Of a stretch of DNA of 64,000 bases, positions 3,801 to 64,000 are shown one piece after another. The position numbers and the translations under genes were made by a program. Source of the stretch: Naegleria gruberi. Lineage: Eukaryota. Under the pieces are notes generated by a model. It was not told the DNA's origin. It worked only from the letters and a program-made list of their open reading frames with translations, and ran no database searches. Each line of letters begins with the position of its first letter. Position 1 is the first letter of the stretch. The stretch lies in the NCBI GenBank assembly GCA_000004985.1, contig GG738856.1; one strand, written 5' to 3'.

Positions 3801-3873
3801 GCCCGTCTAGCTCAGTCGGTAGAGCGCAAGGCTCTTAACCTTGTGGTCGTGGGTTCGACCCCCACGGTGGGCG
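3801..3873 (+). tRNA. tRNA-Lys (anticodon CUU)
   Basis: Cloverleaf: acceptor GCCCGTC/GGTGGGC, D-arm GCTCAGTCGGTAGAGC, anticodon stem CAAGG/CCTTG with loop CTCTTAA, T-arm GTGGGTTCGACCCCCAC. Matches the canonical eukaryotic tRNA-Lys(CTT). Confidence 0.9.
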
Positions 3874-6880: not shown

Positions 6881-8233
6881 ATGAGTGGAAAACAATTGTG
6901 GGTCAAAAAGACAGTGGTCAATAATAACCAACAACAACAACCATCATCTCCCAATACAGCAACAACAAACAATAATACTCCAACAAGTAATACAACAACT
7001 CCGAATGTTACCTCAGGAAGTGATCAATCATCTTCAACCCAACCAAATAATCCTGCCAGCACATCACCATCTTCAACTCTAAAGATTACTTCAACACTCA
7101 AACACAATGCCACTCCATTTACTCCCCAAAACTTTGTACCCCTTACACAACCTCAACCTGTCCCAACACCACAACCAGTTCCTCCTGTACTAGTAGCTGA
7201 AAAACAACCACACCCTAAAAAGAATCACCCAAAGAAACAACATCAAAAGGCTAATCAAGGAAATAATAATCAACAAAATAATCAAGGAAATAATGTCGGA
7301 AATAGTAATACTAATAATAATAATAATGAACAACATTATGGAAGTCTTTTGAAGAACAAGACAAAAGTAATTATTAGAAATATTCCCTATAATTTTACAG
7401 AGCAGGATTTTATTGTGAAATGTGCTCCAAAGAGTTTTGTTACAGAGCAAGTAAAGCAGCAACAACCTCCTGTTGTAGCTAGTGCCACACCAACTTCGGA
7501 ACCTAGCACTCCAACCCTACCAGAAATTCCACACTTTATCTATGATCCTAAAAAGATCACATGGTCCGACTTTCATGTTGGACACAAGACCATGACTCAG
7601 GTATTTTCAAGTATTGCTTATTTGAATTTTGCAAGTGTTTCCTTGTTGCATCAGTTCAAAAATGAATTTTATGAGGAGTTGAAGAGCAAGCAATCAGTTG
7701 CTCTTTCTTCCTCTGTTCAAATCACGGATGATGATGTTGATGAAAGTCCAGTACCTACATTGGCAGCTACTAATACCTCAATATGGAGAGAAACACCAAT
7801 GACTATTGAATATTGTCCTCTACAAATGGTTCCAAAGCCAAAGAAGAAAGATCCAAGAGATGGAACAATTTTCAAGGATGAACATTATTTAAGATTTTTG
7901 GAACAACTAAAGCAACCTAAAGATCTCACATTACAACCTCTTAGTTTGGATAATAGTTCTACGACAAGTGGACTTGGTCTTGATGGCGGAGAAAGCTCTG
8001 ATGGAAGTACTTCAAGCAAAAAACTTGGTACAAATATTCCACTTGCTCTTGGAGGTGTTGGAGCTTCATCAAGTTATACTAAGAAAACTGACGAACCTAT
8101 TATTTCACCATTATTGAAGGAATTACTTGAAAAGAAAAATAAGAAGGGAGCTAATCAAAATAATGATCCAAACAAACCAAAGGGAAACAATCCTAAGAAG
8201 TCTGGAAAGCCTCAATACAAGAGAAAATACTAA
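6881..8233 (+). CDS. UPF3: UPF3 (regulator of nonsense transcripts 3; Smg4/UPF3 domain) with an N/Q/T-rich N-terminus
   Basis: KTKVIIRNIPYNFTEQDF aligns to KVVIRRLPPTLTKEQL. IEYCPLQMVPKPKKKDPRDGTIFKDEHYLRFLEQL aligns to IVEFAPFQK..KKKRDTKVGTIDDDPEYRKFLES of UPF3B. Confidence 0.75.
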   Translation: MSGKQLWVKKTVVNNNQQQQPSSPNTATTNNNTPTSNTTTPNVTSGSDQSSSTQPNNPASTSPSSTLKITSTLKHNATPFTPQNFVPLTQPQPVPTPQPVPPVLVAEKQPHPKKNHPKKQHQKANQGNNNQQNNQGNNVGNSNTNNNNNEQHYGSLLKNKTKVIIRNIPYNFTEQDFIVKCAPKSFVTEQVKQQQPPVVASATPTSEPSTPTLPEIPHFIYDPKKITWSDFHVGHKTMTQVFSSIAYLNFASVSLLHQFKNEFYEELKSKQSVALSSSVQITDDDVDESPVPTLAATNTSIWRETPMTIEYCPLQMVPKPKKKDPRDGTIFKDEHYLRFLEQLKQPKDLTLQPLSLDNSSTTSGLGLDGGESSDGSTSSKKLGTNIPLALGGVGASSSYTKKTDEPIISPLLKELLEKKNKKGANQNNDPNKPKGNNPKKSGKPQYKRKY

Positions 8234-39832: not shown

Positions 39833-40765
39833 TTAGTTTTTAAAGTTTTCAATATTAATTTCACGATCAACCATAATACCTGCTTTTTGACCTGAGGCCA
39901 CAGCCAATGCCACGCTTCTCATGTAGGTTGTGGCATCTCCTGCAGCATACACACCCTCAACAGTGGTCTTTTGGAGAGAATCGACAATAATTTCATTGGT
40001 TGTGGTCAATTCACATCCCAATTGTTTGGCCAAGTTGTTTCCTTGAGTTGTCTTTGGTTTCAGATAAATTACATCAAGTTCAATTTCAGAAGAATCCTTA
40101 AAAACAATCTTTTGAACTCTACCTTGATGATGAATGAGCTTTTCAATGGGTTTCTCAATAATTTGGATTCCATTTTTAACATGTACTAAATGTTGTTGCT
40201 CTGGAGTGAGAGTACAAGGGCCATCAGTCAGCAATATTAAATCCTTTGCCCAATTACTGATCATTACACATGAATCGAAGGTCTTTTCATTATTCGAAAT
40301 GAGGGCTGTTTGCTTTCCAATCTCCTCATAACCATGACAATATGGACAATGAAGAACAGAAATTCCCCAACATTCAGAAACTCCCTGAATGAGTGGAAAC
40401 TCATCTTTGAGACCTGATGCCAAAATCACCTTTCTAGAATGATAGATTCCATTATTGGTTTCTACTTGAAATCTGCTGCTGCATTCGCCCTTACTTGCCT
40501 TCAAAACCTCCTCCATCCTATACGAAACAGTTGAATATTTGAGAACTTGCTCAAGGGCTTTTTTGCTAATTTGTGATGGAGCTTCACCATCATGCAGAAT
40601 GAAATTGTGAGAGAATGGAGTTTGTCTATTGCATGGCTTGTTAGTGTCGAAAATCAGGACTGATTTTGATGCTCTTCCTAATGCCATAGCTGCTGATAAA
40701 CCTGCAAAGCTACCTCCAATAATGATAACATCGACGAGTGAGGTTGATAAGTGTTGTTGGATCAT
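39833..40765 (-). CDS. FAD-dependent pyridine-nucleotide disulfide oxidoreductase (bacterial thioredoxin-reductase-like)
   Basis: FAD motif VDVIIIGGSFAGLSAAMALGR, redox-active HCPYCHGYE, second dinucleotide motif TALISNNEKTFD and C-terminal GVYAAGDA. Intronless 310-aa ORF, bacterial-like in architecture. Confidence 0.65.
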   Translation of the reverse strand: MIQQHLSTSLVDVIIIGGSFAGLSAAMALGRASKSVLIFDTNKPCNRQTPFSHNFILHDGEAPSQISKKALEQVLKYSTVSYRMEEVLKASKGECSSRFQVETNNGIYHSRKVILASGLKDEFPLIQGVSECWGISVLHCPYCHGYEEIGKQTALISNNEKTFDSCVMISNWAKDLILLTDGPCTLTPEQQHLVHVKNGIQIIEKPIEKLIHHQGRVQKIVFKDSSEIELDVIYLKPKTTQGNNLAKQLGCELTTTNEIIVDSLQKTTVEGVYAAGDATTYMRSVALAVASGQKAGIMVDREINIENFKN

Positions 40766-55657: not shown

Positions 55658-58600
55658 TTATGATAAGGTAGATGATGGATTGAAAATATTGCCATTCGAT
55701 AATGAATCCACAAATGGGTCACTGAAGCTTCTATTAATTCTTTCGGATGTTGGAGTATATTGAGGTTGCTGAGCTTGGTTTACTGGCTTTCTAATTGGCA
55801 CAGGTTGAAGTTGTGGAACCATGCTGAAATTGGATAAGCTACCACCAGATACACCTTTTGGATCTTGTATCACTTTGGCTGGAGAAGTCAAGCTTTTTGG
55901 ATCAGGTTTTACAGAACCATTGTTAGTAGGTTGTTGGGTAGTGCTAACAATGAGTTGATGCTGGTGAACTTGAGAAAATATTGATTGTGGCTTATCCATA
56001 CTGAGGTTTTCTAAATTCTTACTGATGAGTGAAGTTAATTCATTATTGTCAGTTGGTTTAACTACCACGTTCACATTGACATTCAACTGACCAGCTGGCT
56101 TGGCAACTGGCTTGACTGGAGCTGTTGGTGATGCATTTGATGAAACTCCAATCTGATTTGGTGTTGTTGGAGTTGTTTTGATTCTGTCATCACTAATTGA
56201 GCTGGTAGTAGTTTGAATTGATGTACCAATAATTTTAAAGGAATTGTTTGAAGATTGTCTCAACTTATTTACAATAGTTGTGGCAGTAATTAATGAGGAA
56301 CCCTCTGATGGTAATTTAACCTCAGTGAGCTTGTTTTCCATATCATTAATTAGTCTGGCACTGAGATTTGACATTTGGTAAGGATTTACAATCTTCAAAT
56401 TACTATTATTTGAGACTGGATCAAATTGGAATGGTGTCATTTTGGTTTCGAGAGGAACGTTGAATTTTTTCATCAGCTCCATTTGCTCCTTTCTTTGTTT
56501 TGCCTTCAAAAGTTCCATTTCTTCATACTGTTTTTGTAATAATTGCTCCCATTGTGCTTCAAAATCATCAGACTTTACCGCAACATTTGATCTTGCATTG
56601 GTTGGACTTGTTCGTGTTGACTTGTTAGGTTGTGTTACATTTGTAGTTACAACATTCGTATTGTTAAGGGCAGGGCTGGATTGATTTCTTAAAAGAGGAG
56701 AGTTGGATTTCTGTTCAGGTGACTCCTTTTTAACAGCTTCACCAACCTTTTTTGTTTCCACAGTGAGGGGTTTTTCTGTCTTGGTAGAGTCAAAATTGTT
56801 TGAGAGGAGGGTAGGTGTTGTTGTTTTTGGGGATGGAGAAGTATTTGATGTTGAAGTTGTTGGAGAGGAAATGTTAGCTTGAGTATTATTATTGGTGGCA
56901 CTCTTATTCTGGTCAGTAGTAGCTACTCCAACACCATTCTGTGGTGTAGTGTTGATTGGTTTTGGAGGATTATTTGGTGTTTGTTTGATTTGTTGCTGAT
57001 TATTGACAGGTGTTGCACCATTTGTTTTTGGTGTGTTATTAGCTTGCTGAGGTGTCACTACTGGTTTGAGAGTTAATTCATTTGTCTTTGGAGTGGAAAG
57101 AGGAGGAAGCTTCTTATCAACAAATGGAGTTATTTCCTTAATAACTGGACCATTAAAAGGTGAAATTGGTTGTGGAACAACTGGACTTGAAAGGTTAATA
57201 ATTTCAGCTTCTCTCACTGGTGTACCCTTTGTTGGTGAATCGATAGGTTGATCCCTTTTGGTTGGAGTGGTTGACCTTTTTGGTGGTTCAATAATTACAG
57301 GAGTTTCTACAATTTCTAAAGATTTCTCTTTTGTAATTTCAGAAATGGATTTAACTGAAGTAGTTGGTTCTGTGTTTGAAGAAGAACTATCACTCTCAGC
57401 ACTACCCTTAGTTGTTAAGAAATCGAGCTTGGCCTTTGTTAGACAATCAGATAGTGCTTTTGATATCGAGTCAACGAATGATTCTGTGAGTGAAAGTTCA
57501 TTCACCATTTCTCGAGCAACTTCTATTGGGGTGTCTTTCTTCAAGTTGAAAGCAAATTTGATTTCCTTATATTTTTTGTTTCCGTCCACCTTAATATATA
57601 GCTTTGTATTAACAGAATATTTGTCATTAGTAGGATCATTTCCAAGAACAACTCTGACATCTTCTCGTTCTTCTTCTTCATCAGATGAAGATACTTCATT
57701 ATCCTCTTCCTCGATGCCAAAATAAAAGATTGTATCATTATTTGTAATATCAGTCATAAATCTATGATTCATCAATTCGGCTGCACTTGGACGTATATCC
57801 TTATGACAAATGCATAAATTAATAAATTCTTTCACGTCGGGATCTTTAACTCTTTCTATACCTTCTGGTTTAACACCAGATGTTACTCGTCTATATACTT
57901 GGGCAATACTGTTACATTCACTATAAGGATATTCACCAGTGACCATTTCCAAAACACAAAGGCCAAATGCATAAATATCAACCTTCTCGTTATAACGTTC
58001 CTCATAAAATTCTGGAGCCATAAATTCTGGTGTACCATTCACTGAAGTTGCAAACTTTTTATCTTTCATGCTTACTGAAAGACCCAAGTCTCCAATTTTA
58101 ACTTCTCCTCTACTGCCATTCATGAAAATATTATCACATTTCAAGTCTCTGTGAATGATCGAGTGGGCGTGAAGGTAACTCAGACCTTCTAACACTTGTT
58201 TACACCACTTTTTAATATTTCTCAATCTTACTTTCTTTGAATTTCTTATGAAACTAGATGGAAATTTGTTAAAATTTAAAAAAGAGCTAAATCACTTACT
58301 CTTTTAAGGTACCAGAACTCATTAATTCTGTAATAAATATTAAATAATCGTCTTCAGTTTCCCACGAATCATATATATTAATTATTGATGCATGTTTTAA
58401 TTGTCCAAGTATACTAATTTCCTGCATAATCTTTTTCTTTTGGTTTGGTGCAACACCAGCAAGTTTGATTTGATTCCAAGCGACTTCAATACCCTCTTCG
58501 GTATCATACGCCCTGTAGCTGTTTAGTGTTGGTGATGATGATTATTGAAAACATTAAATATATTATTACAATAATATTATACTTACACTGTCTTGAAGGC

Positions 58601-58666
58601 TCCGGAACCTAATAATTCCTTCTTCGAATACCTTCCTTTGGGATCAGTTTTAATTTCTTTCGACAT
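55658..58666 (-). CDS. WNK: WNK (with-no-lysine) protein kinase with a long S/T/P/N-rich C-terminal region. Three exons: 58666..58587, 58518..58300 and 58253..55658 (introns of 68 and 46 nt, donors GTAAGT).
   Basis: The spliced N-terminus MSKEIKTDPKGRYSKKELLGSGAFKT|VYRAYDTEEGIEVAWNQIKL...ITELMSSGTLK|DFIRNSKKV...IIHRDLKCDNIFMNGSRGEVKIGDLGLS...GTPEFMAPEFYEERYNEKVDIYAFG aligns to WNK1 throughout. WNK features include Cys in place of the beta3 Lys context and HRDLKCDNIF. A PF2/CCT-like segment follows the kinase domain. Confidence 0.8.
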
Positions 58667-59709
58667 GGTTAATAGTTGTTGTTATATAAAAATTGTTTGA
58701 TAGCACAGTTGATAAACTCTGCTTTCGCTGAGTTGATTGTTTGGTTGATATTGTTGTGTAATGTACCACAACAGAACAAGATGATAGTTTTTCCAGTTTG
58801 ATAAAATCCAATATTTGCCAGATGAGAGCCCAGATATCGAAAAGAAATCGAGTATACTATTATTAAAACTTCTCTTGTAGATTGAAGTGATGAACAGTGG
58901 TTCAATTTCTTGAAGAATGGATCTTTGAAGAGAATCCGAATAGAGTTTAATTGATGATGATTCGGTGTTTGTTTCTAGAGCCAATTTTGTGCAATAGATA
59001 TCTTCCAATTAAATCTCTAATGTTCCGTTTTGTGAGAGTAAAATTGATAATCAATCCAATTGATATTGTTGAATATTATATGTTCAATATAATTATTGTT
59101 GACTATTAGAAGGCCTTCCACAACTTTGTTCGTGGACACAAAAATCCGTGATGAGTTCGAGTTTTTTTCGAAATGAATGTCTTCTTCCCTTGTTCTTCAT
59201 CTCATCACAGTGCAAAATTCAAGCGGTAAATAAAACTGTAGAGAACAACCACAACGCTATGATTTGATGGCACAGGTTACCAAGCAAGAACATTGCCCAT
59301 CAAGCTTGGCGTTTAAAGGGAAACACAAGACCATTTGTATTAACACCTTGAGCGAAATTACAATTAATTGGATTGACAAGTAGTTGGCGGGAAACGAATC
59401 ATACACAAGCTAGGCTATTTCTTCTCAAATTGTTGTCTTTCTCAAATTCTTCCTTATGAAGAAGAGAATTCAGAGTTTAGTATGATGAGATGCAATAGTG
59501 AGACAATTCCAATGTGCACCTTCTCCTTCAAGCTCTTAATGGCGTTATTGAACAAGATGGTATTATTAGATAAAAATGTTACATGCTGGTAAATTGTTTG
59601 GTTCTAATGAATTCCAAAATCAACAACAACCAATAGAATCTTCTTCACCTCCCCCAAAATTTCATCAACAACAGAAAGAAGATTAACATCCCTTCTCTCC
59701 CATTTACAG

Positions 59710-60558
59710 TTGGTTGCTTCTCCTTTTGTTAGACATTCAACCAATGTTGTGCAATACTTTTCCAACAATAATAATAACAAAATAGTGGAAGATGTTAATG
59801 TAAATCATCACAAAATAATCAAGAAGGAAAACAAACAATTTAATAATTCAACACCAAATCAATCCGATAATACTCTCCTTCAAAATTTACTTTCAAAATC
59901 TTCATCATCAAAAAGAAAGAATTTGATTAATGATAACAACATCCAACAAACACCAACAATAGACAATCAAACATTGAATCAATTAGCAGATGCTTCAACA
60001 CGTTCCAAAACATCGGGTGCTGATGTATTATTGCAATTTTCACCTCTAGTTTCTGGCCAAATCAAACAAGCACAAGTTACTTATATTTCTCCTCATTCTG
60101 CTTCGGAATCTGCCGATTCAACTTCAATGCAAGCTGGAGTTTTATTGGTTGCTTCTACGAGAGCAGATTTGAGAAGAGCTTTTATTGAAAGATTGTGTCA
60201 AGCTGCTGTGGAAAGATCTGCATTGGTTTACTCTATTGCAACACAAGGTGGTGTCAATGTTTCAACAGATGGTGTTTACAAATTATCAACTCATCCAACA
60301 TTATCAAGAAGAGCCATTTTGAATGCATTATTGAGACATGGAGCTCACTTATTAGTGTTTGGTACAATCAGCACGAGAGATGATGTCATGTCTTTGATGG
60401 ATGCTGCCTATACAGGTTATCATTGTGTTGCTGAGATTTATGGTGAATCAGCTCATGACGTTCTTTCAAGATTGGAAGCTATTGGAGTTGATGTTTCAAT
60501 GTTACCTCAAAATTTGAGAATAGTTGTTCCAGCAAATACTACTTCATCTCTTACATAA
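59710..60558 (+). CDS. Protein whose C-terminal 170 aa resemble a CpaF/TadA/VirB11/GspE-family secretion-ATPase core with a degenerate Walker A; 5' exon(s) unresolved
   Basis: GVLLVASTRADLRRAFIERL sits where ILVSGGTGSGKTTLLNAL would be. LSRRAILNALLRHGAHLLVFGTISTRDDVMSLMDAAYTGYHCVAEIYGESAHDVLSRLEAIG aligns to the CpaF segment [57 protein letters not shown]. The N/S-rich N-terminus is eukaryote-like. The ORF begins just after a polypyrimidine-CAG acceptor-like site (59709); a candidate ATG sits at 59576 (aaaaATG). Confidence 0.45.
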   Translation: MVASPFVRHSTNVVQYFSNNNNNKIVEDVNVNHHKIIKKENKQFNNSTPNQSDNTLLQNLLSKSSSSKRKNLINDNNIQQTPTIDNQTLNQLADASTRSKTSGADVLLQFSPLVSGQIKQAQVTYISPHSASESADSTSMQAGVLLVASTRADLRRAFIERLCQAAVERSALVYSIATQGGVNVSTDGVYKLSTHPTLSRRAILNALLRHGAHLLVFGTISTRDDVMSLMDAAYTGYHCVAEIYGESAHDVLSRLEAIGVDVSMLPQNLRIVVPANTTSSLT

Positions 60559-60744
60559 TTTTATTGTAATGCAAAGTGTAATGGTGCTGTTCTGTAAGAG
60601 ATAACGTTGGATGGATTGGAGATAATTTTGTATTGTTGAAACATTATTAGAAAAACGCTTTAAAACGCTTAATAATTTTCATGATGAATAAAGTTATGAT
60701 AGAATAACAGAAAATATTTTTCCAAGGTAAGAATCCCAAAAGGT

Positions 60745-60818
60745 TACAGCGAGCGGGGCTTGAACCCGCGACCTTAAGCGTGTTAGGCTTACGATCTAAC
60801 CAACTGATCTATCGCTGC
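60745..60818 (-). tRNA. tRNA-Val (anticodon AAC)
   Basis: Reverse complement GCAGCGATAGATCAGTTGGTTAGATCGTAAGCCTAACACGCTTAAGGTCGCGGGTTCAAGCCCCGCTCGCTGTA folds as a cloverleaf with anticodon loop CTAACAC. There is a G1-U72 pair in the acceptor stem. Confidence 0.8.
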
Positions 60819-61023
60819 TTACACTGTTTTTATCCTTAATACATCGAGAGCCTTAATTTAGAGTTAGATGGTAGAGGTTTGAATTTAAAGGTTCGTATTC
60901 CATTCGAGTAGCCTTAATTAATAAAAAGAAGAATAATCTATTAAAATCTTTTAAGAGACACTAGTTAAAAATTGGTTAGAAACAGGTTCATAGTTCGTTA
61001 ATGAATAAGTTCAATTAAAAAAA

Positions 61024-62301
61024 ATGCTCAACAACATTTATGCTCTCATCACTGGCAATCCACTGCCATCATCAGATTCATTGCAATTAAATAATACGCC
61101 AGAGGATGAGGAAAAATCAAATCAATCGTGTCCACCGTCATTCTATGAAGAGAGTGGGATCTTTTTTAAAAGTTATGATTCTTTGGAATATTGTAAATAT
61201 TTGTATGATCCAAATCAATTCGTTGCACAATTTAAGAGTTGTTTAGAGGAAGAGAATTTTACCAAGTTGAGAAATTTGAGAATTCTTATTCAACATCAAA
61301 CAACTCATATATGTCGTACTAGAAAGTATAATTTCAGGCCAATTAAGGTGGAAGGTGAGGTTAAGAAGAAGAATGTTGAATTGAAAGAGCATGTATTAGT
61401 GAATGCTTCCATCAATAGTAAATATTATAGAAATGAATTATTGGATGTGAGTGATAAGGTTGGAAATCCAGAGAAGGATACTCAAGTTTTGGTTTTTAAC
61501 GGAGATTGCCTTGATATTGCATTCCATGTTCAAGATTTATTGATGAAGGAAGGTCAATTAGGAAAGGAACGAGTTGCGGTTTTGAATATGGCCAATCCCG
61601 AGCAACCAGGAGGAGGATACAAGACTGGGTGCGGGTAAGTTAGTAACTACTATTTCAATTAATTTAATTTAACCTTTAAAAGAGCTCAAGAAGAAAACTT
61701 ACATAGAAGATCAAACTTGTATCAATGTTTGGATAATCCAGTTGATAGAATCGATAAGAAAAGAACATGGTCCTATCCAATTGGTTATGAGAGTGGTGTC
61801 TTTAGCCCAGATGTAACTGTTTTTAGAGGTTGTGAGGCCAAGGGTTATCCACTCCTCTCAGCTCCAAGATTAATTGATGTTATCACCGCAGCAGCAGTTC
61901 CTAATTCTGCATACAATGATGGAAGTATCGATAATAGAAATATTGGATCCATTGAGGCAATATTGAAAATTGCAGTTCAACATAAGGTGAGAAATCTTGT
62001 TCTTTCAGCTTTGGGTTGTGGAGCTTTTAGAAATTCTCCAACAGCTATCGCTCAAGTTTTCAAGGAAAAGATTGAAAGCACTGAATTCAAAGGTCATTTT
62101 GATAGAGTTTTCTTTGCAATTATCGATGATCACAATGCAAAGAAAGTGCACAATCCAGATGGAAATATCAAACCATTCGTCCAAGTGTTTTCTAAATATT
62201 TGAAGGAGAGAGAAGATTTGCCACAACTCATTGGACAACAATTTGATTATGATTATGATAACATGGCATTAGAATATCATGAATTCTATGCAAATCTCTA
62301 A
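61024..62301 (+). CDS. Macro-domain protein of the bacterial-type PARG family (TIGR02452/DUF2263). Two exons: 61024..61634 and 61683..62301 (48-nt GTAAGT intron).
   Basis: The spliced signature VAVLNMANPEQPGGGYKTGCG|GAQEENLHRRSNLYQCL matches the conserved VLNxANxxxPGGGxxxGAxAQEExLCRxSxLY motif. The C-terminal LSALGCGAFRNSP and FDRVFFAII blocks also match. Exon phases are consistent. Confidence 0.75.
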
Positions 62302-62563
62302 ATATGATACTTATTTTTGTAATAAAACAATGGATAAGAATAGAATCGTAACATAAAATTATGAATCCATATTTTTCAAATAAAAAAAATGAAAAGTGAA
62401 AAAAATATGGTAAAAAATAGGTCTCAATCAGAGGTTATTTTCTAAAGAAATACTTGTCATTACTTGCTGAAATTTGAGACGTATCTACACATAGTTGTAT
62501 TCTATCTACTATAAAAAAATAGCAATTTATCATAAAAAGATGAAGAAACTAAAATATATTTTC

Positions 62564-62634
62564 TGCGTCGACCGGGAATTGAACCCGGGTCACGGCGATG
62601 GCAACGCCGTATTCTACCACTAAACCATCGACGC
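62564..62634 (-). tRNA. tRNA-Gly (anticodon GCC)
   Basis: Reverse complement GCGTCGATGGTTTAGTGGTAGAATACGGCGTTGCCATCGCCGTGACCCGGGTTCAATTCCCGGTCGACGCA is a near-canonical eukaryotic tRNA-Gly(GCC). Confidence 0.9.
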
Positions 62635-62961
62635 TTCACATTTATCACCTCAAAATTGTATATCTGAACATAAACCATATTATCTGTTTAACTCTTCATC
62701 CGTTACAAACTGAAACAAAGGATGTTTGATACATGCATTCTCCTCTTACACCTCATCGTTATCATGAACCAAAGGATATCCAAGAATCATCTTCTCCATC
62801 ACCATTTCAAGCAGTGCCCACAAGCGCTCAACGGCTTGCAAAAAAATCAACAATTTTGAAACATCACAAATTTTCAATTATCAAATTCTTTGGCCGCCGA
62901 ACACAACAAGTAACAAAGGAAGAAATTAATATATAATTATTTAAATTGTTAACAAAGAGAA

Positions 62962-64000
62962 ATGAAACACATTCCACATTTAAAACCAGGCCAATGCCAT
63001 GAAAATGATAAAGCCGAAGTTGTTCTTTTACATGAACCAGGATTAGAAGCCTTGTTAGGATCACTTCATGCTTCCGGTTCATTGTTTGAAAAACCAGTTA
63101 ATTTGCAATTAGCTAGAAAAAATCATCAAGGTTTTAAAGAAGCCCTGAGAAGACACGGAGTTAAAGTTATGGATGTTAGAGATATTTTGGCAATGAATTG
63201 TGAGCATTCTTTGAAATGCAGAGTTGAATTGGAAGAATTAGCTTTAAAGTGTATGAAATATGTTTGTGATGATGGTGATGATGAAGCAACAACAGATTTT
63301 AATGATTTAACATCAATTCAAAAGTATTTATTAACTGATGATTATAAGAGAGAATGTTTATCAACAATGGGTGTTAATGATTTAATTGATATCATCTTGT
63401 TGGGTCCAACTGTTAGATTGGTTCCTTCATCAACAAATACTCCAATGAGATTGGAAAGATTAGGTATGAGACCTCTTCTTAACTTGACCTTTACTCGGGA
63501 CCAACAAATTGTCACCAATAGAGGTCTTGTTATTTGTCGTATGGGAAGTTTGCAAAGACATCAAGAAACTAAAATTTTGAAATTCTGTTTTGAAAAGTTG
63601 GGATATGAAATTTTGGGAGAAATTAAAGAGCCAGGTATTATTGAAGGAGGTGACTTTTTGGTTGGTGGTGCTGATATCTGTTATATTGGTGAAGGTTTGA
63701 GAACTAATCCAGATGCCATTCGTCAAATGCTTGATAATGATTGGTTTGGAACTAGACGTGTTGCTGTCGTTCATGATTACTTTGATTGTGATCAACAAAG
63801 AATGCACTTGGATACCTTCTTTAACATTTGTTCACACAATTGTTGTGTCATGCTTGAAACTGTTATGGGAGAAAACTCTCCACTCAGACGTTTGGTTACT
63901 GAATATACCAAGAATGAACAAGGAAAGTATGAAGTGACTCGTTTCAATGTTGAATTTTCCAAATATATTAAGGAAGAAGGTTATCATATTATCTCAGTTA
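62962..64000 (+). CDS. Arginine deiminase-like (guanidino-group-modifying / amidinotransferase-fold enzyme), 5'-complete but truncated by the window end
   Basis: The frame is open from the ATG at 62962 to the window edge; it is absent from the ORF track because no stop is reached. It has the ADI motifs VLLHEPGLE (LHRPGxE), NLTFTRD, EGGDFLVGG and MHLDTFFN. Confidence 0.65.
   Translation, partial: MKHIPHLKPGQCHENDKAEVVLLHEPGLEALLGSLHASGSLFEKPVNLQLARKNHQGFKEALRRHGVKVMDVRDILAMNCEHSLKCRVELEELALKCMKYVCDDGDDEATTDFNDLTSIQKYLLTDDYKRECLSTMGVNDLIDIILLGPTVRLVPSSTNTPMRLERLGMRPLLNLTFTRDQQIVTNRGLVICRMGSLQRHQETKILKFCFEKLGYEILGEIKEPGIIEGGDFLVGGADICYIGEGLRTNPDAIRQMLDNDWFGTRRVAVVHDYFDCDQQRMHLDTFFNICSHNCCVMLETVMGENSPLRRLVTEYTKNEQGKYEVTRFNVEFSKYIKEEGYHIISV

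What the first reader, a model, noticed from the sequence alone, without database searches (positions are those of the whole stretch)
59576..64000. Neighbourhood of bacterial-type genes with tRNAs between them: dead ATPase, mPARG-like macrodomain, arginine deiminase
Within 4.4 kb on the same strand lie three genes whose closest families are bacterial: the CpaF-like pseudo-ATPase, a TIGR02452/DUF2263 bacterial-type PARG macrodomain, and an arginine deiminase. A tRNA-Val and a tRNA-Gly sit between them on the opposite strand. The macrodomain gene has acquired a 48-nt spliceosomal intron, and all three use the host aaaaATG start context, so they look like domesticated, old acquisitions. The FAD oxidoreductase at 39833..40765 is a fourth bacterial-type gene nearby. 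Co-localisation of ADP-ribose and arginine metabolism with a secretion-ATPase remnant is unexplained.
Basis: inference. Interest (0 to 1): 0.6.

Follow-up and report, generated by a model that had tools for sequence, protein, structure and literature searches.

The report
Three known Naegleria genes, chance neighbours
This stretch of the amoeba Naegleria gruberi's chromosome holds three already-published genes (a dead secretion-ATPase relic called GspEL, one of seven bacterial-type PARG copies, and an arginine deiminase) plus two ordinary tRNA genes, and comparison with relatives shows they are neighbours by chromosome history, not a functional or transferred gene cluster.

Summary
The window is Naegleria gruberi nuclear DNA, and 59576-64000 carries XP_002679742/3/4 plus tRNA-Val(AAC) and tRNA-Gly(GCC).

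- **Gene 1** is NgGspEL, the degenerate GspE-like protein already described as part of the mitochondrial type II secretion (miT2SS) gene set (Horváthová 2021). Its apparent frameshift is an assembly error.
- **Gene 2** is one of the seven bacterial-type PARG (bactPARG) genes already reported for N. gruberi (Perina 2014). Its GGG-X7-QEE signature is intact, and it sits in a 100%-supported Naegleria+Willaertia clade.
- **Gene 3** is an arginine deiminase (ADI). All its named close relatives are eukaryotic, and it is only weakly similar to solved bacterial ADIs.

The linkage test fails for the trio:
- kinase–GspEL…ADI is conserved in four Naegleria-type genomes.
- The interval between GspEL and ADI holds different genes in each lineage: tRNA–bactPARG–tRNA here, SUI1 plus canonical PARG plus an orphan in N. 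fowleri and N. lovaniensis, and a different orphan in a metagenomic relative.
- bactPARG orthologues lie elsewhere in N. lovaniensis and Willaertia.
- In six non-Naegleria GspEL loci, neither ADI nor bactPARG is nearby.

I found no compositional anomaly and no flanking repeats. The region is ordinary and its components are already known. The only curiosity is that two different PARG types occupy the same interval in different species.

The parts
59576..60558 (+). NgGspEL (XP_002679742.1, NAEGRDRAFT_65062). It is a single-exon gene for a 327-aa degenerate homologue of the nucleotide-binding (C1E) domain of the T2SS ATPase GspE. The window carries a 1-nt assembly deficit at 59654-59655 that splits the ORF into two frames.
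   Evidence: - Pfam T2SSE 27.5 bits over profile 189-273/370.
- 100% identity to the N. gruberi protein; the Andalucia orthologue is named GspEL1.
Data 1 of PMC8134430.
- An intact 327-aa ORF exists in an independent ENA contig, P0229.
- No [AG]x4GK[ST] Walker A motif.
- GEIRD is replaced by GTISTRDD, and the His box TGH..LHT by TGY..IYG.
- The AF2 model's best PDB matches are PilF/PilB/GspE cores.
60745..60818 (-). Nuclear tRNA-Val(AAC) gene
   Evidence: ARAGORN. Rfam RF00005 at 66.9 bits. No encoded CCA, and a TTTT run 3 nt downstream. No tRNA is found in the syntenic interval of N. fowleri, N. lovaniensis or L088.
61024..61634 (+). Exon 1 of the bacterial-type PARG (bactPARG/mPARG) gene XP_002679743.1 (NAEGRDRAFT_65063). 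It ends inside the Gly codon just before the AQEE of the catalytic signature.
   Evidence: Splice model. The spliced product is 100% identical to the annotated 409-aa protein P0029. PF10021 at 95.9 bits and TIGR02452 at 143.9 bits.
61635..61682 (+). 48-nt spliceosomal intron (GTAAGT...AAAAG) that interrupts the PARG signature-coding segment
   Evidence: The N. lovaniensis orthologue has an intron 7 nt upstream of this position. The Willaertia copy L004 is intronless: 1203 nt encodes 400 aa.
61683..62301 (+). Exon 2 of the bactPARG gene. It completes PGGG-YKTGCGA-QEEN (GGG-X7-QEE) and carries the GCGAF loop.
   Evidence: Invariant G196-G198, Q206, E207, E208 and G315-C316-G317-A318 in alignment A1. 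Alignment to solved Deinococcus (5zd*) and Thermomonospora (3sig) PARGs at 75.7 and 67.4 bits.
62564..62634 (-). Nuclear tRNA-Gly(GCC) gene
   Evidence: ARAGORN. Rfam at 66.9 bits. TTTT run downstream.
62962..64000 (+). 5' 1039 nt (346 codons) of the arginine deiminase gene XP_002679744.1 (NAEGRDRAFT_47456). The gene continues beyond the window.
   Evidence: - Pfam ADI 139.6 bits over profile 4-306/377.
- 92% identity to N. fowleri, N. lovaniensis and L088 orthologues.
- Named relatives at 35-51% identity are all eukaryotes.
- Solved bacterial ADIs score only 26-44 bits.
- The catalytic-Cys motif SLHC is present in the full-length protein P0149.
55658..58670 (-). Protein kinase gene that forms the conserved divergent pair with GspEL. 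It is the upstream synteny anchor, not part of the claimed cluster.
   Evidence: ORF. tblastx collinearity with L001 and L002. A kinase also lies upstream of GspEL in L088.

Best explanation
This is an ordinary stretch of a Naegleria gruberi chromosome. Three functionally unrelated, previously described genes and two RNA polymerase III tRNA genes happen to lie side by side.

1. **GspEL** is a catalytically dead relic of the GspE secretion ATPase. It belongs to the 27-protein Gsp/Gcp set that accompanies the mitochondrial type II secretion system. It most likely acts as a non-enzymatic subunit or adaptor in that mitochondrion/peroxisome pathway.
2. **The bactPARG paralogue** keeps every catalytic signature residue. 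It most likely hydrolyses poly/mono-ADP-ribose linkages, like solved bacterial-type PARGs.
3. **The ADI** is the eukaryote-clade arginine deiminase and converts arginine to citrulline and ammonia.

The kinase-GspEL...ADI order is inherited synteny within the genus. The interval between GspEL and ADI is rearrangement-prone. In N. gruberi it is occupied by tRNA-Val, bactPARG and tRNA-Gly, and in relatives by other genes. No step requires the three proteins to cooperate.

- **Shown here:** gene identities, motif states, and synteny or its absence.
- **Inferred:** biochemical activities (by homology) and the absence of functional coupling.
For: **Identity**
- 100% matches to consecutive N. gruberi proteins XP_002679742/3/4.

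**GspEL**
- The published description reports abrogated Walker A, Asp box and Walker B motifs and places the protein in the peroxisomal proteomic cluster.
- The curated sequence equals this gene.
- Motif loss and the GspE/PilB-like fold were re-checked here.

**bactPARG**
- Seven copies in N. gruberi are already reported, three with an intact signature.
- The signature here is intact.
- The Naegleria+Willaertia clade has 100% bootstrap.

**ADI**
- Named hits are green and red algae, Anaeramoeba, Euglena, Fonticula and Histomonas, at 182-356 bits. Solved bacterial ADIs score 26-44 bits.
- Bacterial arcA equivalog models score 83-85 bits against cut-offs of 414-489, on a query truncated at residue 346.
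- The literature places eukaryotic ADIs in a clade sister to Archaea.

**Synteny**
- N. fowleri and N. lovaniensis have kinase-GspEL-SUI1-PARG-(orphan)-ADI, with no tRNA and no bactPARG.
- L088 has kinase-GspEL-396-aa orphan-ADI.
- bactPARG orthologues in N. lovaniensis and Willaertia sit among unrelated genes.
- GspEL loci of Acrasis, Andalucia and four metagenomic contigs lack ADI and bactPARG.

**No island signature**
- GC is uniform, and GC3 is 0.20-0.28 for all three genes against 0.26 for the kinase.
- No flanking repeats.
- The rest of the window holds typical eukaryotic genes.
Against: - GspEL and ADI stay within 2.4-4.6 kb of each other in all four Naegleria-type genomes, although every gene between them has turned over. 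This could hint at selection for proximity.
- The variable interval holds a PAR-degrading enzyme in both clades: bactPARG here, canonical PARG in N. fowleri and N. lovaniensis. That is an unlikely coincidence if placement were random.
- Co-expression and subcellular location of the bactPARG and ADI were not testable. The held copy of the organelle proteome table is truncated.
Confidence: 0.85

Rival explanations
1. The three genes form a functional module. They would be co-regulated neighbours linking ADP-ribose removal and arginine catabolism to the GspEL/miT2SS-peroxisome pathway.
For: - All three are on the same strand within 4.4 kb.
- GspEL...ADI proximity is kept in four Naegleria-type genomes despite turnover of the genes between them.
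- A PARG-type enzyme occupies the interval in both clades.
Against: - bactPARG orthologues lie on other contigs among unrelated genes in N. lovaniensis and Willaertia.
- ADI is absent near GspEL in six non-Naegleria loci.
- Neither a PARG, a macrodomain protein nor a deiminase is among the 27 Gsp/Gcp proteins; the paper has zero mentions of them.
- ADI and bactPARG occur widely in eukaryotes, such as algae and rotifers (fungi per PMC4245714), outside the lineages reported to carry the miT2SS.
- Each gene has its own A-rich start context, and they are separated by oppositely oriented Pol III genes.
Confidence: 0.05
2. The region is a remnant of a single horizontally acquired bacterial island. 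It would have integrated next to tRNA genes and later been domesticated.
For: - tRNA genes flank the macrodomain gene.
- PF10021 and T2SSE are families with mainly bacterial membership. Bacterial bactPARG homologues are 33-45% identical.
Against: - The three genes have different histories.
  - GspEL is shared with jakobids and malawimonads and is inferred to be ancestral.
  - The nearest named relatives of the ADI are all eukaryotes.
  - The bactPARG belongs to a duplicated heterolobosean clade that groups, weakly, with other eukaryotic copies.
- There is no GC or GC3 deviation and no direct or inverted repeats bounding the segment.
- tRNA-Val(AAC) has the A34 anticodon typical of eukaryotic nuclear genes (own knowledge).
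- The tRNAs and the bactPARG are missing from the same interval in relatives.
Confidence: 0.02
3. In-place exchange of PAR erasers. The ancestral Naegleria interval carried a PARG-type gene, and a bactPARG replaced (or was replaced by) the canonical PARG at the same chromosomal position. That would mean selection for a PAR hydrolase at this locus.
For: - N. fowleri and N. lovaniensis carry a canonical PARG (PARG_cat_C 163.9 bits, PARG_cat_N 50 bits) exactly between GspEL and ADI.
- N. gruberi carries a bactPARG there.
- With seven bactPARG genes in a genome of roughly 16,000 genes (gene count from memory), random placement in this one interval has a probability of the order of 1e-3.
Against:
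- The genes are on opposite strands and share no remnant similarity beyond the signature.
- The third lineage (L088) has an unrelated membrane-protein-like orphan there and no PARG of either type.
- N. lovaniensis has both its canonical PARG here and the bactPARG orthologue elsewhere, so no replacement occurred in that lineage.
- I could not determine whether N. gruberi keeps a canonical PARG elsewhere.
Confidence: 0.06

Closest known systems
GspEL of the mitochondrial type II secretion system gene set (Horváthová et al. 2021, Nat Commun 12:2947; PMC8134430)
   Same: It is that protein. The window gene equals the curated NgGspEL sequence. It shares the C1E-domain homology and the loss of the Walker A, Asp box and Walker B motifs. 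It has orthologues in N. fowleri, N. lovaniensis, Acrasis and Andalucia.
   Different: Nothing biological differs. The reference assembly carries a 1-nt error at 59654-59655, and the NCBI model (265 aa) splices around it. That removes a conserved N-terminal segment (TTERRLTSLLSHLQ) which is present in N. fowleri.
Bacterial-type PARG (bactPARG/mPARG; DUF2263, PF10021, TIGR02452), e.g. Thermomonospora curvata PARG (3SIG) and Deinococcus radiodurans PARG (5ZDA)
   Same: It has the macrodomain PARG catalytic core with GGG-X7-QEE and the GCGAF loop. HMM scores are far above cut-offs. It is one of the N. gruberi bactPARGs counted by Perina et al. 2014.
   Different: - It has a ~115-residue N-terminal extension and a C-terminal tail conserved only among Naegleria and Willaertia copies.
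- It carries a spliceosomal intron.
- It belongs to a eukaryotic paralogue family, not to a bacterial operon.
- Its activity is untested.
Eukaryotic arginine deiminase clade (Novák et al. 2016, BMC Evol Biol 16:197; PMC5052871)
   Same: It has the ADI fold, and the catalytic Cys motif is present in the full-length protein. Its closest named relatives are algal and protist ADIs.
   Different: Naegleria-type orthologues are 761-768 aa and carry an extra C-terminal DDAH_eukar-like domain. Naegleria is named only in that paper's OTC results, not its ADI text. The window contains only the first 346 codons.
Bacterial arcA-type arginine deiminase (TIGR01078 / PRK01388)
   Same: It shares the same superfamily and reaction chemistry.
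   Different: It scores 83-85 bits against equivalog cut-offs of 414-489 (query truncated). Solved bacterial ADIs score 26-44 bits. It is not a member of the bacterial equivalog.

Membership tests
GspEL (miT2SS-associated degenerate GspE paralogue) | Homology to the nucleotide-binding C1E domain of GspE/PilB-type secretion ATPases | tested here: met
   Pfam T2SSE at 27.5 bits (cut-off 24.9) over profile 189-273. In the AF2 model, residues 140-270 have pLDDT 70-87. Its top Foldseek PDB hits are PilF, PilB, GspE and CpaF at E 7e-5 to 1e-3.
GspEL (miT2SS-associated degenerate GspE paralogue) | Walker A, Walker B/Asp box and His box catalytic motifs abrogated | tested here: met
   There is no [AG]x4GK[ST] anywhere in the 327-aa protein. 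'MVGEIRD' of PilF aligns to 'VFGTISTRDD', and 'TGHLVIATLHT' aligns to 'TGYHCVAEIYG'. These replacement residues are invariant among 18-26 orthologues.
GspEL (miT2SS-associated degenerate GspE paralogue) | Orthology to the published GspEL sequences | tested here: met
   It is identical to curated NgGspEL apart from the frameshift site. It is 59-91% identical to Andalucia GspEL1, Acrasis, N. fowleri and N. lovaniensis.
GspEL (miT2SS-associated degenerate GspE paralogue) | Co-occurrence with core miT2SS genes and organellar (peroxisome-cluster) localisation | not testable with these tools
   Taken from PMC8134430 only.
Bacterial-type PARG (PF10021 / TIGR02452) | Family HMM above the curated threshold | tested here: met
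   PF10021 at 95.9 bits against 23.5, and TIGR02452 at 143.9 bits against 50.
Bacterial-type PARG (PF10021 / TIGR02452) | PARG signature GGG-X6-8-QEE with the catalytic glutamates | tested here: met
   The spliced sequence reads PGGGYKTGCGAQEEN. It is invariant across nine eukaryotic homologues and aligns to the GGGF..AQEED motif of Deinococcus PARG.
Bacterial-type PARG (PF10021 / TIGR02452) | Diphosphate-binding loop (G-C/A-G-A/V-F) | tested here: met
   ALGCGAFRN aligns to AWGCGVFRN of 5zdf. G315, C316, G317 and A318 are invariant.
Bacterial-type PARG (PF10021 / TIGR02452) | Hydrolysis of poly(ADP-ribose) or ADP-ribosylated substrates | not testable with these tools
   It needs an enzyme assay.
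Arginine deiminase (PF02274), eukaryotic clade | ADI family HMM above threshold | tested here: met
   139.6 bits for the 346-aa window part and 173 bits for the full-length P0149.
Arginine deiminase (PF02274), eukaryotic clade | C-terminal catalytic cysteine | tested here: met
   It lies outside the window. 'MYGSLHCSSQV' is present in P0149 and in the N. fowleri orthologue. Its assignment as the nucleophile rests on motif position only.
Arginine deiminase (PF02274), eukaryotic clade | Closest relatives are eukaryotic ADIs rather than bacterial ones | tested here: met
   Every named hit is a eukaryote, at E 1e-47 to 1e-101 and 33-51% identity. Solved bacterial ADIs score 26-44 bits. No formal tree was built here.
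Bacterial ArcA equivalog (TIGR01078) | Score above the equivalog cut-off | tested here: not met
   83.5 bits against 489.1, and PRK01388 at 85.3 bits against 414. The query lacks the last ~70 residues of the domain, but the shortfall is far larger than that.
Conserved gene cluster / horizontally acquired island | Linkage of the member genes conserved in related genomes | tested here: not met
   The trio is found only in N. gruberi. The bactPARG lies elsewhere in N. lovaniensis and Willaertia. GspEL-ADI adjacency occurs only in four Naegleria-type loci and is absent from six others.
Conserved gene cluster / horizontally acquired island | Compositional deviation or boundary repeats/integration scars at the tRNA genes | tested here: not met
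   GC is 0.33-0.36 throughout. GC3 is 0.20-0.28, like the kinase gene. Only short, chance-level repeats were found.

The most novel reading that the evidence does not exclude
The GspEL-ADI interval of Naegleria could be a selected 'slot'. On this reading, GspEL and the two-domain ADI are kept together because they act in a common organellar (peroxisome/mitochondrion) pathway. The slot would then preferentially retain a poly(ADP-ribose) hydrolase: canonical PARG in N. fowleri and N. lovaniensis, bactPARG in N. gruberi. That would implicate ADP-ribosylation and arginine or citrulline chemistry in the still-unknown function of the miT2SS/Gcp system.
Probability: 0.04. Interest if true: 0.6.

Novelty: already known. 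Interest (0 to 1): 0.12.

Why it matters
It matters little for new biology. Each gene is already annotated and discussed in the literature, and the proposed neighbourhood does not behave as a unit.

The practical value is threefold:
- It removes a false lead: a 'cluster of bacterial-type genes' in a eukaryote.
- It documents that the reference GspEL locus has an assembly frameshift and a mis-spliced NCBI model.
- It records a rearrangement-prone interval that holds two different PARG types in sister lineages. This could be checked cheaply once more heterolobosean genomes are available.

Tried and rejected
1. I first guessed a dictyostelid origin from the AT-rich, N/Q/S/T-rich coding. The first homology search rejected that by returning 100% N. 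gruberi matches.
2. I tried GT-AG intron models to join ATG 59576 to the ORF at 59710. I rejected them because the published curated sequence and the ENA contig P0229 show one continuous ORF and an assembly error.
3. I searched the N. fowleri and N. lovaniensis intervals for a decayed bactPARG with a family HMM on six-frame translations. I found only noise and the expected faint hit at the canonical PARG signature.
4. I looked for tRNAs travelling with bactPARG or GspEL in nine other loci and found none.
5. I looked for repeats bounding tRNA-bactPARG-tRNA and found nothing beyond the shared tRNA T-arm and AT-rich 14-25-mers.
6. I looked up the N. gruberi paralogue P0031 to see its neighbourhood. 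It is not on record.
7. I searched the organelle-proteome supplements of PMC8134430 for XP_002679743/4. They were not found, but the stored file is truncated, so this is inconclusive.
8. I searched Perina et al.'s supplements for a N. gruberi canonical PARG. Nothing relevant is held.
9. A sequence-profile search of PDB with the GspEL family aligned only the Walker B-His box segment. The Walker A assignment therefore rests on motif absence, the structural match and the paper.
10. The NJ tree of bactPARGs could not resolve whether all eukaryotic copies are monophyletic (44.5% bootstrap). The ultimate origin of the family in Heterolobosea remains open.

Full report
**What is there.**
- The window is nuclear DNA of Naegleria gruberi. 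The three predicted products are 100% identical to consecutive RefSeq proteins on one 602-kb scaffold:
  - XP_002679742.1 (NAEGRDRAFT_65062)
  - XP_002679743.1 (NAEGRDRAFT_65063)
  - XP_002679744.1 (NAEGRDRAFT_47456)
- ARAGORN and Rfam agree on tRNA-Val(AAC) at 60745-60818(-) and tRNA-Gly(GCC) at 62564-62634(-), both at 66.9 bits.
- Neither tRNA encodes CCA, and both are followed by a TTTT run. This fits eukaryotic Pol III genes.

**Gene 1 is GspEL.**
- The ORF 59710-60558 matches Pfam T2SSE only over profile positions 189-273 of 370.
- Its orthologue in Andalucia godoyi is named 'T2SS-related protein GspEL1'.
- Horváthová et al. 2021 (PMC8134430) describe GspEL as a divergent homologue of the nucleotide-binding C1E domain of GspE, with Walker A, Asp box and Walker B abrogated.
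  - It is one of 27 Gsp/Gcp proteins that co-occur with the mitochondrial type II secretion system.
  - In N. gruberi it was recovered in the putative peroxisomal proteome cluster.
[quoted passage not shown] It reads MLHAGKLF...SSSPPSKISSTTERRL....
  - The window matches it from ATG 59576 up to nt 59653, and again from nt 59656 in the next frame. Two bases stand where three are needed.
  - An independent ENA contig encodes the intact 327-aa ORF.
  - The gene is therefore a single exon, 59576-60558.
  - The 265-aa NCBI model splices around an assembly error and loses a segment that is conserved in N. fowleri.
- I re-checked the 'dead ATPase' claim:
  - The protein has no [AG]x4GK[ST] motif.
  - PilF's 'VGEIRD' and 'TGHLVIATLHT' align to 'FGTISTRDD' and 'TGYHCVAEIYG'. 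These residues are invariant among orthologues.
  - An AlphaFold model (pLDDT 70-87 over residues 140-270) finds PilF, PilB, GspE and CpaF ATPase cores as its best PDB matches.
- The remnant is GspE/PilB-like rather than specifically CpaF-like.

**Gene 2 is a bacterial-type PARG (bactPARG).**
- It scores 95.9 bits on PF10021 and 143.9 bits on TIGR02452.
- Splicing joins ...GGGYKTGCG to AQEEN, which restores an intact GGG-X7-QEE signature. The GCGAF loop is also present.
- Both features align to solved Deinococcus and Thermomonospora PARGs.
- Perina et al. 2014 (PMC4245714) already reported that bactPARGs occur in all eukaryotic supergroups except Plantae. They count seven copies in N. gruberi, three with a fully conserved signature.
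- The closest relatives are a N. lovaniensis orthologue (56%), a N. gruberi paralogue (51%) and two Willaertia magna copies (49-50%). Next come protist and bdelloid rotifer sequences at 36-43%.
- Bacterial homologues, mostly Bacteroidota, are 33-45% identical.
- In a bootstrapped NJ tree the Naegleria+Willaertia clade has 100% support. All sampled eukaryotic copies group together, but with only 44.5% support.
- N. lovaniensis has an intron 7 nt from the N. gruberi position, and the Willaertia copy is intronless.
- The gene is therefore an old resident of a duplicated heterolobosean family. The deeper origin of that family is unresolved.

**Gene 3 is an arginine deiminase of the eukaryotic type.**
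- Every named hit is a eukaryote, at 33-51% identity and E 1e-47 to 1e-101. They include green and red algae, Anaeramoeba, Euglena, Fonticula and Histomonas.
- Solved bacterial ADIs score only 26-44 bits.
- Bacterial arcA equivalog models score 83-85 bits against cut-offs above 400.
- Novák et al. 2016 (PMC5052871) found that eukaryotic ADIs form one clade next to Archaea, apart from the all-bacterial clan. They suggest an origin at or near LECA.
- The label 'bacterial-type' does not fit this gene.

**The linkage test.**
- In N. fowleri and N. lovaniensis the order is acetyltransferase, kinase(-), GspEL(+), SUI1(-), canonical PARG(-), a 333-aa orphan, then ADI(+).
  - These loci have no tRNA and no bactPARG, even by HMM on six-frame translations.
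  - The window in turn has no SUI1 or canonical PARG.
- A metagenomic Naegleria-like contig (L088, whose GspEL P0004 is 86% identical) has kinase(-), GspEL(+), an unrelated 396-aa orphan(+), then ADI(+).
- So kinase-GspEL...ADI is conserved in four Naegleria-type genomes, while the interval between GspEL and ADI has three entirely different contents.
- The bactPARG orthologue of N. lovaniensis lies on another contig between BTB and gamma-glutamyl-transpeptidase genes. A Willaertia copy lies among unrelated genes.
- Outside Naegleria, six GspEL loci have neither ADI nor bactPARG within the available flanks. They are Acrasis kona, Andalucia godoyi and four metagenomic contigs.
- The miT2SS paper lists no PARG, macrodomain protein or deiminase among the co-occurring proteins.

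**No island signature.**
- GC is 0.33-0.36 across the region.
- GC3 of the three genes is 0.20-0.28, against 0.26 for the adjacent kinase.
- No repeats bound the tRNA-bactPARG-tRNA segment.
- The rest of the window encodes typical eukaryotic proteins: ODAD1, UPF3, MED14, a proteasome subunit, formin, LRR, F-box and PPR.
- The 'fourth bacterial-type gene' at 39833-40765 is a generic Pyr_redox_2 flavoprotein on the opposite strand, 19 kb away.

**Conclusion.**
- It is an ordinary chromosome segment that combines three things:
  - a published miT2SS-associated pseudo-ATPase;
  - one of seven published bactPARG paralogues, probably active;
  - a eukaryote-clade ADI.
- GspEL and ADI are genus-level synteny anchors. 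The bactPARG and both tRNAs are lineage-specific occupants of a variable interval.
- One residual oddity remains. Sister lineages have a canonical PARG at the place where N. gruberi has a bactPARG.
  - With seven bactPARG copies in roughly 16,000 genes (gene count from memory), this is improbable a priori.
  - It was noticed post hoc, it is not shared by the third lineage, and N. lovaniensis keeps both genes at different places.
  - I rate a meaningful 'PARG slot' at about 5%.

Noticed in passing
window 59648-59660: The reference assembly lacks one base in the C/A-rich run cctcccccaaaa (59654-59655), which splits GspEL into two frames. The NCBI model XP_002679742.1 (265 aa) splices around it and drops the conserved TTERRLTSLLSHLQ segment. 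An ENA contig (P0229) and the curated sequence in PMC8134430 give an intact 327-aa ORF.
   Followed up: yes
L001 11385-13401 and L002 11322-13347 (N. fowleri / N. lovaniensis, between GspEL and ADI): A SUI1/eIF1 gene and a canonical PARG (PARG_cat_N + PARG_cat_C) occupy the same syntenic interval that holds the bacterial-type PARG in N. gruberi. Two different PAR-hydrolase families therefore sit at one chromosomal position in sister lineages.
   Followed up: partly
L001 15657-17942; L002 15049-17331; L088 5095-7401 (continuation of the window's gene 3 beyond 64000): Naegleria-type ADI orthologues are 760-768 aa. They combine an ADI domain (about residues 50-423) with a second, DDAH_eukar-like domain (about 492-737, 97.8 bits). 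By eye, the C-terminal domain ends ...KYHVSLNNLIAPLF, with no cysteine where this fold normally has its nucleophile, so it may be catalytically dead. The N. gruberi RefSeq model (599 aa) looks truncated.
   Followed up: partly
L005 10001-11633 (Acrasis kona): The Acrasis GspEL gene lies tail-to-tail, 24 bp from a Pex2/Pex12-type RING peroxin gene. This is suggestive because NgGspEL fractionated with peroxisomal proteins, but it is a single-species adjacency.
   Followed up: no
L088 3473-4663: A metagenomic Naegleria-like contig has a 396-aa hydrophobic orphan gene between GspEL and ADI. It has no Pfam hit and no similarity to the N. gruberi or N. fowleri occupants. This is the third distinct content of the interval.
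   Followed up: partly
window 61635-61682 and L003 10616-10692: The bactPARG intron sits inside the coding segment for the catalytic GGG-X7-QEE signature. The N. lovaniensis orthologue has an intron 7 nt upstream (in a different phase) and a second intron that N. gruberi lacks. The Willaertia copy has none. This suggests intron sliding or independent gain.
   Followed up: partly
window 62287-62298: The bactPARG ends in -YANL and its N. gruberi paralogue P0031 in -YSNL. -ANL resembles the non-canonical catalase-type PTS1 (own knowledge). This is a speculative hint at peroxisomal targeting; no predictor was run.
   Followed up: no
window 6881-8233 vs L001 1076-2374: The UPF3 (Smg4_UPF3) gene lies about 8 kb from GspEL in N. 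fowleri but about 50 kb away in N. gruberi. This shows substantial insertion or rearrangement within the otherwise collinear block.
   Followed up: no
window 3801-3873: A third tRNA gene, tRNA-Lys(CTT), lies on the + strand.
   Followed up: no
window 39833-40765 (-): A 310-aa thioredoxin-reductase-like flavoprotein (Pyr_redox_2, 90.7 bits). It is on the opposite strand, 19 kb away, and its phylogenetic affinity was not examined.
   Followed up: partly
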